Positions 1,762 to 2,995 of a stretch of DNA of 4,893 nucleotides are shown here, piece after piece (position 1 is the first letter of the stretch; each line of letters opens with the position of its first letter). The translations under genes and the position numbers were made by a program. The stretch is from the IMG/VR virus record IMGVR_UViG_2548876958_000007; one strand, 5' to 3'. The DNA comes from a virus. Lineage: Duplodnaviria > Heunggongvirae > Uroviricota > Caudoviricetes. The notes below the pieces were generated by a model that worked only from the letters and a program-made list of their open reading frames with translations, was not told the DNA's origin and did no database searches.

Positions 1762-1787
1762 AAAGAAAACCCGGCGCTGAGGCCGGG
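1762..1787 (-). terminator. Intrinsic terminator of the 311-aa gene transcription unit
   Basis: Minus-strand RNA CCCGGC-CUCAGC-GCCGGG (6-bp G/C stem) followed by UUUUCUUUG, beginning about 10 nt after the TAA stop at 1799..1797. Confidence 0.65.
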
Positions 1788-1796
1788 GCAATAAAG

Positions 1797-2732
1797 TTAT
1801 TCTGCGTCAATATCTTCTACGGTTAGTAGAGGGTGTACCTTATCAAGCAATTGGATGAAATCTTCATAAGTATCGCTTGCTTGCATGAGTGTTGTTACCC
1901 CTGTAAGTCTCTTTTGAAGAAGACCATATCCAGTTCCCTCTGATAGAAACTGATGCATTTTTGCACCTGCCTTTTTTGCTTTTGCTCTTTCTTCCTTTAG
2001 CGCATTTCTTAGCTCTGGTGCCATGCGGTCATAAGTTATGTTATTCACAAGATGACCAAAGTATTGCGGTCTCCGCATGTTTGCTTTGAATGGGACTCCT
2101 CTGAGTCTACATAACTCCTCAAAGAATTCTGGCGGATATGTGCTTACCCATGGTCGCATTTCTTTAGCGATGAATTGCTCAAGGAGTTTTGCCAGTTCAT
2201 CGCGCTCTCGTTCTTTTTGGTATCCAGTCGCTTCATCAACGAGCGCAACGGCGCCAACTCTAGCTAGAGCTTTATAGAGCGCTTTGGCTTTTGCAGCTGT
2301 ATTCAAGTGATGCTTTTGTCGTAGGGCTCCATCCCTCTCAGCATCTGTCCATGCCTCGCAAAGCGCTGGTAGCATAGTAACGTCAATGCCATAAGCGACA
2401 CCTGCACCTGATGTATTTTTATATACAATTGGTTCTGCTAGCGCTTCTCTTAGTTCATCAGAAATATATGGCTGAAGCTCATTTGCTTGGAGAACATATG
2501 GTAATTGACCTGGCTTCCCATTTGGTACCCATCTTGGCATTTTTGAGCCAACAGATACACCGAATGTTTCTGCCAATCCATTTGCACCTTGCATTGAAAC
2601 CACTCTGCGACCATCAGGCAAAACAGCACAAGAAACACCTGTCGCCATTAATCCTGTGTGAGTTGGCTTTGGAGCTGATCTAACGATTGCTGACATTGCT
2701 GCTGCTTTTTGAGCTCGTTTTTTAGTATCCAT
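1797..2732 (-). CDS. Hypothetical protein, 311 aa, stand-alone accessory (moron) gene between the cI unit and pL; function unknown
   Basis: Long uninterrupted minus-strand frame (ORF track 1797..2789, which starts at a TTG); trimmed to the ATG at 2732..2730 with a G-rich SD (GGGGGA) upstream. Has its own candidate promoter and terminator. Visibly more AT-rich than the flanking cI/N genes. No catalytic motif recognised by eye (no clean Walker A). Confidence 0.75.
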   Translation of the reverse strand: MDTKKRAQKAAAMSAIVRSAPKPTHTGLMATGVSCAVLPDGRRVVSMQGANGLAETFGVSVGSKMPRWVPNGKPGQLPYVLQANELQPYISDELREALAEPIVYKNTSGAGVAYGIDVTMLPALCEAWTDAERDGALRQKHHLNTAAKAKALYKALARVGAVALVDEATGYQKERERDELAKLLEQFIAKEMRPWVSTYPPEFFEELCRLRGVPFKANMRRPQYFGHLVNNITYDRMAPELRNALKEERAKAKKAGAKMHQFLSEGTGYGLLQKRLTGVTTLMQASDTYEDFIQLLDKVHPLLTVEDIDAE

Positions 2733-2759
2733 AAATCCCCCATATGCTTGGTTATGGTG

Positions 2760-2789
2760 ATGATAGCTTATTTCAAATAAGCAGGACAA
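2760..2789 (-). promoter_or_regulatory. Candidate promoter of the 311-aa gene with a perfect 17-bp palindrome (GCTTATTTCAAATAAGC, 2766..2782) filling the -35/-10 spacer
   Basis: Minus-strand -35 TTGTCC (plus 2784..2789) and -10 TATCAT (plus 2760..2765) separated by 18 nt; the spacer is an exact 8+1+8 palindrome, the classic position for a dimeric repressor operator. Confidence 0.45.
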
Positions 2790-2791
2790 TG

Positions 2792-2923
2792 GTAGCTAAA
2801 TCATTAATTAGCTACAAAATGCATCATTTTTATTTATCTCATTGATATGTATATATTTATCGATAAAATATTTTTAGCTGTTATGTGATTAAGCTAAATA
2901 TTAATGCTAATTAATGCGTTAGC
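2792..2923. repeat. AT-rich island containing three inverted repeats built on the motif GCTAA/TTAGC
   Basis: IR1 2792..2815 GTAGCTAA-N8-TTAGCTAC (perfect 8-bp arms); IR2 2874..2897 TTAGCT-N12-AGCTAA; IR3 2906..2923 GCTAA-N8-TTAGC. IR1 and IR3 share the GCTAA-N8-TTAGC architecture. Direct repeat TTAATGC at 2901..2907 and 2911..2917. Confidence 0.6.
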
Positions 2924-2945
2924 ACAATGTGTGGATCACTACCAA

Positions 2946-2970
2946 TAAAAAAGGCCGCACTTCTGTGACC
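2946..2970 (-). terminator. Possible weak intrinsic terminator after the cI/113-aa unit
   Basis: Minus-strand RNA GGUCACAGAAGUGCGGCC (imperfect stem: 4 bp, one mismatch, 2 bp; GAAG loop) followed by UUUUUU (plus A-run 2947..2952). Confidence 0.35.
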
Positions 2971-2995
2971 ATCCATCACCCAAATGTCTCTTCAC

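What the first reader, a model, noticed from the sequence alone, without database searches (positions are those of the whole stretch)
1762..2995. Stand-alone 311-aa unknown gene with its own promoter, operator and terminator in the cI-to-pL slot (where lambda carries rexAB)
Between the cI unit and the pL/N unit sits an autonomous cassette: an AT-rich upstream island, a candidate promoter with a perfect palindrome in its spacer, a 311-aa ORF with a G-rich SD, and a strong intrinsic terminator right after the stop. In lambdoid phages this position, downstream of cI and upstream of pL, is a known hotspot for lysogen-expressed accessory genes such as lambda rexA/rexB (exclusion/abortive-infection functions). 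The protein resembles nothing I can name from memory and shows no obvious catalytic motif, and the gene is visibly more AT-rich than the flanking core genes, which suggests horizontal acquisition. It is a good candidate for an uncharacterised prophage-encoded anti-phage defence or superinfection-exclusion protein, or another lysogenic-conversion function.
Basis: partly seen in the sequence, partly recalled or inferred. Interest (0 to 1): 0.85.

Follow-up and report, generated by a model that had tools for sequence, protein, structure and literature searches.

The report
P63C-family gene cassette beside prophage repressor
A self-contained gene cassette sits between the repressor and the leftward promoter of a 933W-type E. 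coli prophage, in a slot where related prophages carry known anti-phage genes; it encodes a protein of a large, named but functionally unstudied family (P63C), which makes it a reasonable but untested candidate for a new prophage defence protein.

Summary
The anatomy is real. A 311-aa ORF (1797-2732, minus strand) has a G-rich Shine-Dalgarno sequence, a sigma-70-like promoter with palindromes, a 27% GC upstream island and a hairpin terminator 9 nt after the stop.

"Resembles nothing" is wrong. The protein is a clear member of Pfam P63C (PF10546) and phrog_2384, and RefSeq already names it. The family is large (5,441 clusters at 50% identity), phage-borne, and I found no functional study of it.

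The terminator is not private to the gene. It is the conserved tM of the phage backbone.

The segment 1754-2996 is 99.2% identical in prophages with a different cI and N, so it moves as a module.

Among 75 prophages with the same cI, this slot holds 27 different cargo sets. These include RexA, BstA, an Stk kinase (PD-T4-6 family), PD-Lambda-2 and several PADLOC candidates.

Best reading (about 0.4): a DNA-binding protein made in the lysogen that excludes other phages, BstA-like in logic but not a BstA member. Function is untested.

The parts
1762..1787 (-). Intrinsic terminator (stem 1787-1770, T-rich tail to 1762). This is the tM of the 933W-type backbone and the left recombination anchor of the slot.
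   Evidence: -12.4 kcal/mol. Annotated tM in 933W. Identity with 933W ends exactly at this hairpin. Present in 75/80 prophages with this cI.
1797..2732 (-). CDS of 311 aa, a P63C-family protein. Residues about 20-135 form an alpha/beta N-terminal domain. The invariant block D166 E167 T169 G170 Q172 R175 E191 follows, then the Pfam P63C domain at 183-269 and an all-helical C-terminal part.
   Evidence: PF10546, E 6.6e-23, 81.6 bits against a 26.1 cut-off; phrog_2384, E 6e-106; RefSeq WP_021552633.1.
2736..2741 (-). Shine-Dalgarno GGGGGA, 3 nt before the ATG at 2732
   Evidence: Read directly from the sequence.
2760..2789 (-). Candidate sigma-70 promoter: -35 TTGTCC (2789-2784), 18-nt spacer, -10 TATCAT (2765-2760)
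   Evidence: The hexamers sit at the same aligned positions in four diverged orthologous upstream regions (TTTACA or TTGACA; TAAATT, TAACAT, TAACCT, TAGTAT).
2766..2782 (.). Perfect palindrome GCTTATTTGAAATAAGC inside the promoter spacer. Only partly conserved in orthologues.
2792..2815 (.). Inverted repeat GTAGCTAA-N8-TTAGCTAC just upstream of the -35. This is the conserved operator-like site of this P63C subfamily.
   Evidence: 2-7 TAGCTAA copies in the 300 nt upstream in all 12 loci examined, against about 0.05 expected; motif restricted to this protein cluster.
2816..2946 (.). AT-rich upstream island (GC about 0.27) with further TTAGC-type half-sites, for example the inverted repeat TTTAGCT-N12-AGCTAAA at 2898-2873
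2947..2970 (-). Terminator-like hairpin GGTCACAGAAGTGCGGCC + T6 that closes the cI-DUF3024 unit; the right recombination anchor. It is weakened here by a 2-nt deletion compared with the ST131 copy.
   Evidence: the best fold of the 61-nt stretch holding it is -11.4 kcal/mol, z -0.5, here against -20.7, z -3.4, in the ST131 prophage. The same GGTCGC...GCGGCC + T-run follows the repressor gene in many P63C loci.
2996..3337 (-). Flank: DUF3024 gene (113 aa) downstream of cI, also present in 933W
   Evidence: PF11225, E 2.4e-31; PADLOC candidate PDC-S43, E 7e-42.
3398..4105 (-). Flank: cI repressor of 933W immunity type (HTH + S24 peptidase)
   Evidence: 100% identical to 933W cI.
1548..1587 (-). 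Flank: candidate pL (TTGATA/17/CATTAT) with the operator-like inverted repeat ACCAATAGTTC/GAACTATTGGT. nutL and N (915-1298) follow.
   Evidence: (933W annotation places nutL between tM and N).

Best explanation
The segment 1762-2970 is a "moron": a promoter-gene-terminator unit dropped into the hypervariable cargo slot between the repressor operon and pL of a 933W-type lambdoid prophage.

It encodes a two-part P63C-family protein. The N-terminal alpha/beta domain looks like the DNA-binding (KilA-N-like) half of BstA. It is followed by an invariant DEATGYQ..R..E block and the helical P63C domain.

Proposed mechanism (inferred):
1. The gene is transcribed in the lysogen from its own promoter, independently of cI specificity.
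2. The protein binds, as a dimer, the subfamily-specific inverted repeats at its own promoter (TAGCTAA-N8-TTAGCTA here). This gives autoregulation and possibly recognition of "self" DNA.
3. The protein acts on the DNA of superinfecting phages to block their development, that is, BstA-like exclusion or abortive infection.

Shown: the anatomy, family membership, modular exchange, the cargo-slot context with known defence genes, and the co-variation of palindrome type with protein subfamily.

Inferred: expression in the lysogen, DNA binding by this protein, and the anti-phage role.
For: Anatomy.

Modular exchange:
- 99.2% identity over window 1754-2996 in ST131 prophages with an unrelated cI and N.
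- The exact protein lies in cI-P63C-N order with two cI types and varied N genes in all 10 contexts read.

Slot:
- Identity with 933W breaks exactly at the two hairpins. 933W carries a RuvC-like gene, stk and a small ORF there instead.
- 75 prophages with a 98-100% identical cI carry 27 cargo architectures.
- PADLOC recognises among them RexA (9e-110), BstA (1e-105), PD-Lambda-2_B (4e-50), PDC-M63A/B, PDC-M66A/B, PDC-M24B, the Stk kinase (PD-T4-6/mad6) and DUF3024 = PDC-S43.
- A second, divergent P63C member occupies the same slot (g34). So does the 30%-identical orf23 of Salmonella phage ST104.

Family-wide context:
- A cI-like S24 repressor lies one or two genes upstream on the same strand in about a quarter of 80 viral loci.
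- Members sit in the lysogeny modules of a Streptococcus satellite and a Gordonia phage.

Autonomy and operator, across 76 viral loci evaluated:
- A perfect palindrome with arms of 7 bp or more lies within 150 nt upstream in 52, against 6 for an in-gene control.
- A terminator lies within 150 nt downstream in 57.
- Motif type follows protein cluster, not neighbouring genes.

DNA-binding hints:
- N-terminal fusions or replacements with HTH_3 and an IS1595-type zinc ribbon occur in family members.
- hhalign aligns the N-terminal halves of P63C and BstA in the same register in two independent runs (E 1e-3 and 2.5e-3).
- Owen et al. 2021 (PMC8585504) describe BstA as a DNA-associated abortive-infection protein downstream of cI, with a cognate DNA self-immunity element.
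Against: - No PADLOC or NCBIfam model matches.
- The BstA HMM does not hit the protein, and BLASTP against BstA is not significant.
- No KilA-N or Bro-N Pfam hit appeared in any of 44 members, even at E 10.
- Paralogues sit in the nin (early lytic) region on the lytic strand, for example 933W L0095. The family is thus not confined to lysogeny slots.
- The promoter in this window is weak (9 of 12 hexamer positions), and the scan itself is not above chance.
- The block of invariant acidic and polar residues could mean an enzyme rather than a DNA binder.
- Guilt by location is weak evidence. About half of the cargo types in the slot have no known function.
- There are no expression or phenotype data.
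Confidence: 0.4

Rival explanations
1. It is a phage regulatory protein of the Bro / KilA / Ant / Roi class. On this reading it is a sequence-specific DNA-binding protein that tunes transcription or the lysis-lysogeny decision of its own phage, or host genes (lysogenic conversion), and has no role against other phages.
For: - Pfam derives P63C from the study of shuffled DNA-virus regulator domains by Iyer, Koonin and Aravind 2002 (from my own knowledge; the paper was not retrievable).
- Subfamily-specific palindromes at the promoter fit an autoregulated regulator.
- HTH and zinc-ribbon fusions occur in the family.
- Paralogues in the nin region lie next to roi / Rha-type and Bro-N + P22_AR_C antirepressor-like genes.
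- RexA, in the same slot, is reported to bind DNA and to bias the lambda switch (abstract of PMC11077077).
Against: - The cassette works with at least two unrelated cI/Cro immunity types and several N types. A role tied to one phage's own switch is therefore unlikely.
- TAGCTAA sites are concentrated at its own promoter and are few or absent in the 12-13 kb of surrounding prophage DNA. No other target is visible there.
- The slot is dominated by exclusion or defence cargo.
Confidence: 0.25
2. It is an accessory function of the phage's own lytic cycle (replication, recombination or DNA processing). It would be expressed after induction, with the invariant D-E...Q..R..E block acting as an enzymatic site.
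For: - Many family members sit in the nin region between ninB / the Dam methylase and ninG, on the lytic strand.
- Nine invariant polar residues are conserved across proteins that are only 37-45% identical.
Against: - In this window the gene lies between two terminators, outside the pL and pR operons and upstream of pL, so pL transcription does not reach it.
- Even the nin-region copy carries its own palindrome-bearing promoter region and two terminators.
- The gene is dispensable. Phages with the same backbone lack it or carry unrelated cargo.
- No structural or sequence match to any nuclease, polymerase or recombinase fold was found.
Confidence: 0.15
3. The gene is co-transcribed with cI from pRM by read-through, as proposed for bstA, and the "own promoter" is not functional. 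The cassette would then be a plain extension of the repressor operon.
For: - In this window the terminator upstream of the cassette is weakened by a 2-nt deletion (the 61-nt stretch holding it folds at -11.4 kcal/mol, z -0.5).
- The promoter hexamers are mediocre, and the scan is within chance.
- Owen et al. presume that bstA shares the repressor promoter.
Against: - In the ST131 copy and most related loci the hairpin is a strong terminator followed by a T-run (the stretch holding it folds at -20.7 kcal/mol).
- The -35 and -10 positions are conserved across diverged upstream regions, and one orthologue has a perfect TTGACA.
- Cassettes inserted elsewhere (nin region, or on the opposite strand next to Q) keep the same kind of upstream palindromes.
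Confidence: 0.1

Closest known systems
BstA (Salmonella phage BTP1; Owen et al. 2021, PMC8585504; PADLOC BstA, Pfam PF26567)
   Same: - A single protein of about 310 aa in the cI-to-N slot of lambdoid/P22-like prophages, followed by a rho-independent terminator.
- BstA itself is an alternative cargo of this exact slot behind the same cI.
- Short DNA repeats at the 5' end of the locus recall the cognate aba element.
   Different: - No significant sequence similarity. The BstA HMM does not hit the protein.
- The C-terminal halves are unrelated: all-helical P63C against the alpha/beta PF26567 domain.
- P63C has its own AT-rich promoter region of about 190 nt, whereas bstA lies 88 nt after cI.
- No phenotype is known for P63C.
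Pfam P63C domain family (PF10546), phrog_2384; named after p63 of Myxococcus phage Mx8
   Same: Full membership: 81.6 bits against a 26.1-bit cut-off, and phrog_2384 matched over residues 4-306. RefSeq gives the same name.
   Different: - The Pfam model covers only residues 183-269.
- The most conserved block of the full-length family (LVDEATGYQ..R) and the N-terminal domain lie outside it.
- No function is attached to the family.
Lambda rexAB, and 933W stk with its neighbours (cargo of the cI-pL slot)
   Same: Same genomic slot and the same flanking anchors. These are lysogen-expressed exclusion functions (established knowledge for rexAB and stk; for rexAB).
   Different: - Unrelated proteins. 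RexA, RexB and the kinase are recognised by PADLOC and P63C is not.
- rexAB and stk are part of the pRM transcript, whereas this cassette follows a terminator and has its own promoter region.
Morons of lambdoid phages (Juhala/Hendrix concept: promoter-gene-terminator units between backbone genes)
   Same: - Candidate promoter, single gene and terminator.
- Sharp homology breaks against related genomes.
- Deviant third-position composition.
   Different: The downstream terminator is a shared backbone element rather than part of the insert.

Membership tests
Pfam P63C (PF10546) | Score above the curated gathering threshold of the family HMM | tested here: met
   81.6 bits against 26.1, E 6.6e-23, residues 183-269. 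All 44 aligned homologues match.
PHROG 2384 | Full-length match to the phage protein family profile | tested here: met
   E 6.2e-106, residues 4-306 on profile positions 22-328 of 338. The family is annotated "unknown function".
BstA | Match to the BstA HMM (PADLOC PDLC02356), or presence of the BstA-like C-terminal domain PF26567 | tested here: not met
   No PADLOC hit at E up to 1. The same model scores BTP1 BstA at 1.9e-124. Pfam finds only P63C. The C-terminal half is all-helical, whereas that of BstA is alpha/beta.
BstA | N-terminal KilA-N-like DNA-binding domain | tested here: inconclusive
BstA | Location immediately downstream of the prophage repressor, followed by a terminator | tested here: met
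   In this window one small gene (DUF3024) intervenes.
BstA | Cognate DNA self-immunity element (aba) in the locus | not testable with these tools
   Subfamily-specific inverted repeats exist upstream. Whether they neutralise the protein needs an experiment.
BstA | Abortive-infection phenotype with a block of phage DNA replication | not testable with these tools
   No phenotype data. No paper on P63C function was found.
Any known or candidate defence system in PADLOC-DB v2.0.0 | Match to any of the 5,027 models | tested here: not met
   0 families at E up to 1 for this protein. 0 families at E up to 0.1 for ST104 orf23 and at E up to 0.001 for the second slot member g34.
KilA-N (PF04383) / Bro-N (PF02498) regulator domains | Sequence match to the domain HMM | tested here: not met
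   No hit in any of 44 members at E up to 10. Foldseek finds a Bro-N protein only at E 0.23.
Moron (autonomous promoter-gene-terminator insert) | Own promoter and terminator, sharp homology breaks against related phages, deviant composition | tested here: met
   promoter position conserved; breakpoints; GC3 0.292. Caveats: promoter activity is untested, and the terminator is shared backbone.
Cargo of the lambdoid cI-N hot spot | Lies between the 3' end of the repressor operon and tM/pL, at a position where related phages carry other genes | tested here: met
   The hot spot is acknowledged in the literature.

The most novel reading that the evidence does not exclude
P63C proteins are a large, so far unrecognised family of single-gene prophage abortive-infection or exclusion proteins. 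They would be built like BstA: a BstA/KilA-N-like DNA-sensing N-domain joined to a different effector, the P63C domain with the DEATGYQ..R..E block. The subfamily-specific palindromes at their promoters would serve both as autoregulatory operators and as cognate "self" DNA that spares the resident prophage, in the manner of aba.
Probability: 0.2. Interest if true: 0.8.

Novelty: new variant of a known kind. Interest (0 to 1): 0.55.

Why it matters
If the cassette protects lysogens, a family with about 5,400 clusters at 50% identity would be added to the anti-phage repertoire. The family occurs in phages of Proteobacteria, Actinobacteria and Firmicutes and is missed by PADLOC. It would also be a second example, after BstA, of a defence protein paired with cognate DNA sites.

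The slot survey gives a practical discovery resource as well. Two conserved hairpin anchors behind one cI delimit 27 cargo types, and about half of them have no PADLOC hit.

If the cassette is only an autoregulated phage regulator, the result is ordinary: one more moron in a known mosaic hot spot.

Tried and rejected
- NCBIfam gave no hit and PADLOC gave no hit.
- The sequence search of the PDB gave only spurious summed hits to designed PPR repeats; each stretch had an individual E-value above 100. The profile search gave nothing below E 1.
- Rfam found nothing in or near the cassette. The two weak hits in the window lie elsewhere and are below threshold.
- Literature: a search for "P63C" is swamped by p63 biology and crystallographic space groups. 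"P63C domain" is found in 3 papers; the one I read mentions it only in passing, and the other two mention it once each and are off-topic by title. "PF10546" and "DUF3024" returned 0 papers. Iyer et al. 2002 could not be retrieved.
- cI as the binder of the promoter palindromes was rejected. The same upstream sequence occurs with two unrelated cI types.
- The longer 330-aa ORF from TTG 2789 was rejected. It has no Shine-Dalgarno sequence, and both the homologues and RefSeq start at the ATG.
- One context look-up failed: P0115 is not on record.
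Full report
**What the window is.** The window is the immunity region of a 933W-type lambdoid prophage.
- On the minus strand lie an Nmad5-domain gene (230-853), the antiterminator N (915-1298), a 311-aa ORF (1797-2732), a DUF3024 gene (2996-3337) and the HTH + S24 repressor cI (3398-4105).
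- On the plus strand lie cro (4184-4411) and cII (4550-4849).
- cI, cro and N are 99-100% identical to those of phage 933W.
- The 933W annotation, a promoter-like site at 1576-1548 and an 11-bp perfect inverted repeat at 1555-1587 place pL/OL and nutL between the ORF's terminator and N.

**Check of the observation.** The described elements are all present.
- The ATG is at 2732, preceded by GGGGGA (2741-2736).
- A sigma-70-like site reads TTGTCC (2789-2784) / 18 nt / TATCAT (2765-2760), and the perfect palindrome GCTTATTTGAAATAAGC (2782-2766) fills its spacer.
- A 190-nt island upstream has GC 0.27.
- A 6-bp all-GC hairpin with a T-rich tail (1787-1762, -12.4 kcal/mol) starts 9 nt after the stop codon.
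- The promoter scan alone is not better than chance (3 sites found, 4.5 expected). I therefore aligned the upstream regions of four orthologues whose proteins are 79-81% identical. Mean DNA column identity is 68%, yet the -35 (TTTACA, TTTACA, TTGACA, TTTACA) and the -10 (TAAATT, TAACAT, TAACCT, TAGTAT) fall at the same aligned positions as in the window. That is comparative support for a real promoter.

**Four corrections to the observation.**
1. The terminator is the tM of the 933W backbone, not a private element. Identity with 933W runs up to and through this hairpin and breaks just after it. It is present in 75 of 80 prophages with this cI, whatever lies upstream.
2. The gene's overall GC (0.440) equals that of its neighbours. 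Only GC3 is low (0.292 against 0.35-0.50).
3. A second terminator-like hairpin (2970-2947) precedes the cassette. In related prophages it is a strong terminator (the 61-nt stretch holding it folds at -20.7 kcal/mol, z -3.4). Here a 2-nt deletion weakens it (-11.4 kcal/mol, z -0.5), so some read-through from pRM is possible in this copy.
4. The best-conserved operator-like element is the inverted repeat GTAGCTAA-N8-TTAGCTAC (2815-2792), not the spacer palindrome.

**What the protein is.** It is not an orphan.
- It scores 81.6 bits (cut-off 26.1) on Pfam P63C and E 6e-106 over its full length on phrog_2384, a family of unknown function. RefSeq calls the identical protein "P63C domain-containing protein".
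- The family is large: 5,441 representatives of 50%-identity clusters at E up to 1e-3, and 1,332 at E up to 1e-30. Most are stand-alone proteins of 310-360 aa.
- An alignment of 44 members (37-89% identical to the query) has nine invariant polar residues. Six of them form the block D166-E167-x-T169-G170-x-Q172-x-x-R175, followed by E191. This block lies upstream of the Pfam-defined domain, which covers 183-269.
- Rare longer members carry an N-terminal HTH_3 domain or an IS1595-type zinc ribbon.
- NCBIfam and PADLOC give nothing, and no solved structure is related by sequence.
- I found no paper in the held library that studies the function of a P63C protein.

**The cassette is a mobile module.**
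- Window 1754-2996 is 99.2% identical to a segment of two ST131 chromosomes, where it lies between a different LexA-family repressor and a different N.
- The exact 311-aa protein is indexed in 950 blocks of the assembly collection. In all ten contexts read it lies in the order cI - P63C - N. There are two cI/Cro types, N genes of two Pfam families and several sizes, and varied recombination modules.
- The breakpoints against both 933W and the ST131 prophage fall in the two hairpins, which therefore act as recombination anchors.

**The slot is a cargo hot spot rich in defence genes.**
- I fetched 80 viral contigs whose cI is 98-100% identical to the window's. In 75 of them I located both anchors.
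- The DNA between the anchors ranges from 680 to 2,139 nt and falls into 27 ORF architectures.
- PADLOC recognises the following among them: RexA (9e-110, with a RexB-sized partner), BstA (1e-105), PD-Lambda-2_B (4e-50), PDC-M63A/B, PDC-M66A/B and PDC-M24B. It also recognises the 933W Stk kinase as PD-T4-6/mad6 and DUF3024 as candidate PDC-S43.
- The window's P63C gene fills the slot in two of these contigs, and a divergent P63C member fills it in a third.
- In Salmonella phage ST104 a 30%-identical member (orf23) lies between cI and gene 24. This is the place where phage BTP1 carries bstA.
- Owen et al. 2021 note that the cI-N region is a known mosaic hot spot and that it holds rexAB in lambda.
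About half of the cargo types, P63C included, have no assigned function.

**Family-wide anatomy.**
- In 80 viral loci encoding P63C relatives (36-100% identical), a cI-like S24 repressor lies one or two genes upstream on the same strand in about a quarter.
- Other members sit in the nin region (for example 933W L0095, 36% identical), on the opposite strand between Q and an antirepressor-like gene, or in the lysogeny modules of a Streptococcus satellite and a Gordonia phage.
- Wherever they sit, they look like autonomous units. A terminator-like hairpin lies within 150 nt downstream in 57 of 76 loci evaluated. A perfect palindrome with arms of 7 bp or more lies within 150 nt upstream in 52 of 76, against 6 of 76 for a control stretch inside the gene.
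- The palindrome type follows the protein cluster rather than the neighbourhood. TAGCTAA occurs 3.0 times per upstream region in the window's cluster and not at all in the other clusters of two or more loci. GCAAGCA and TGCACG types mark other clusters.
- The TGCACG type occurs both behind cI and in the nin region, including upstream of 933W L0095, which also has two terminators.
- In the window's cluster, TAGCTAA occurs 2-7 times in the 300 nt upstream (about 0.05 expected) and rarely elsewhere in 12-13 kb of prophage.
- The same upstream DNA occurs with unrelated cI proteins, so cI is not the binder. The simplest inference is that the P63C protein binds its own promoter region as a dimer. 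This is inferred, not shown.

**Comparison with BstA.** BstA is a 307-aa prophage abortive-infection protein. [quoted passage not shown]
- P63C is not a BstA family member. BLASTP is not significant, the PADLOC BstA model misses it, and the C-terminal halves differ in fold class.
- The N-terminal halves may be related. hhalign aligns P63C 29-185 with BstA 23-164 in the same register using two independent alignment sets (probability 20.6% and 11.8%).
- The order of secondary-structure elements agrees in the two models: three strands, a helix, a variable stretch, a strand, a long helix, then two helices.

**Verdict.**
- Shown: a real, autonomous, horizontally exchanged cassette encoding a P63C-family protein, lying in a defence-rich cargo slot, with subfamily-specific palindromes at its promoter.
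- Inferred, confidence about 0.4: it is made in the lysogen, autoregulated, and excludes superinfecting phages by acting on their DNA. This is BstA-like in logic.
- Rivals: a phage or host regulator of the Bro/KilA/Roi class (0.25); a lytic-cycle accessory enzyme (0.15); simple co-transcription with cI without a promoter of its own (0.1, which concerns expression rather than function).
- The family itself is already known and named. What could be new is its function.
- Interest is moderate. The result is unsurprising for this slot, but it concerns a large untested family with a concrete, cheap experimental path.

Noticed in passing
window 2996-3337 (-): The 113-aa DUF3024 gene directly downstream of cI matches PADLOC candidate PDC-S43 (E 7e-42). 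It is present in 27 of the 75 surveyed slots, mostly together with the RuvC-like gene and stk. No literature on it was found.
   Followed up: partly
window 230-853 (-): A 207-aa gene downstream of N in the pL operon is a full-length Nmad5 (nucleotide modification associated domain 5, PF18757, E 3e-71; phrog_1965, unknown function). It is also present in phage PhiR12 and in some P63C-carrying prophages.
   Followed up: no
window 2947-2970 (-), against L001 about 6200-6225: The hairpin that closes the cI unit lacks 2 nt (GC) relative to the otherwise 99% identical ST131 copy. The best fold of the 61-nt stretch that holds it drops from -20.7 to -11.4 kcal/mol, so read-through from pRM into the cassette may be higher in this prophage.
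   Followed up: partly
L101-L180 (slot between the cI 3' end and tM): Several recurrent cargo types have no PADLOC hit. Examples: a 299-aa protein in 9 loci (g3), 332- to 348-aa proteins with a central hydrophobic stretch (g16, g22), a 126-aa protein in 4 loci (g7), a g9+g8 pair in 4 loci, and two ClpP/SppA-like 300- to 333-aa proteins (g23, g33). All are candidates of the same kind as P63C.
   Followed up: partly
L183 2333-3382 (933W L0095) and L042-L060: 933W and many Stx phages carry a 36-38% identical P63C paralogue in the nin region, between the Dam-like methylase and roi. It has its own TGCACG palindromes and two terminators. A prophage with the window's cassette could therefore carry two P63C genes with different cognate palindromes.
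   Followed up: partly
window 1-21 (-): Partial match, cut off by the window end, to the lambda cIII thermoregulator RNA (RF01804, 25.6 bits, E 0.011, below the gathering score). This fits a cIII gene lying just beyond the window.
   Followed up: no
L003 2266-3291 (phage PhiR12_1): In PhiR12 the same slot holds a 341-aa protein annotated "T2SS GspM containing protein". It has no PADLOC hit and is another uncharacterised cargo.
   Followed up: no
A2 alignment, N-termini of longer homologues: Most family members outside the window's subgroup begin with a basic motif, G-R-A-K-G-G-K-A-R-A-x-x-(L/M)-(T/S)-x-E-(E/Q)-R. It is truncated to KKRAQKAAA in the window protein. Its role is unknown.
   Followed up: no
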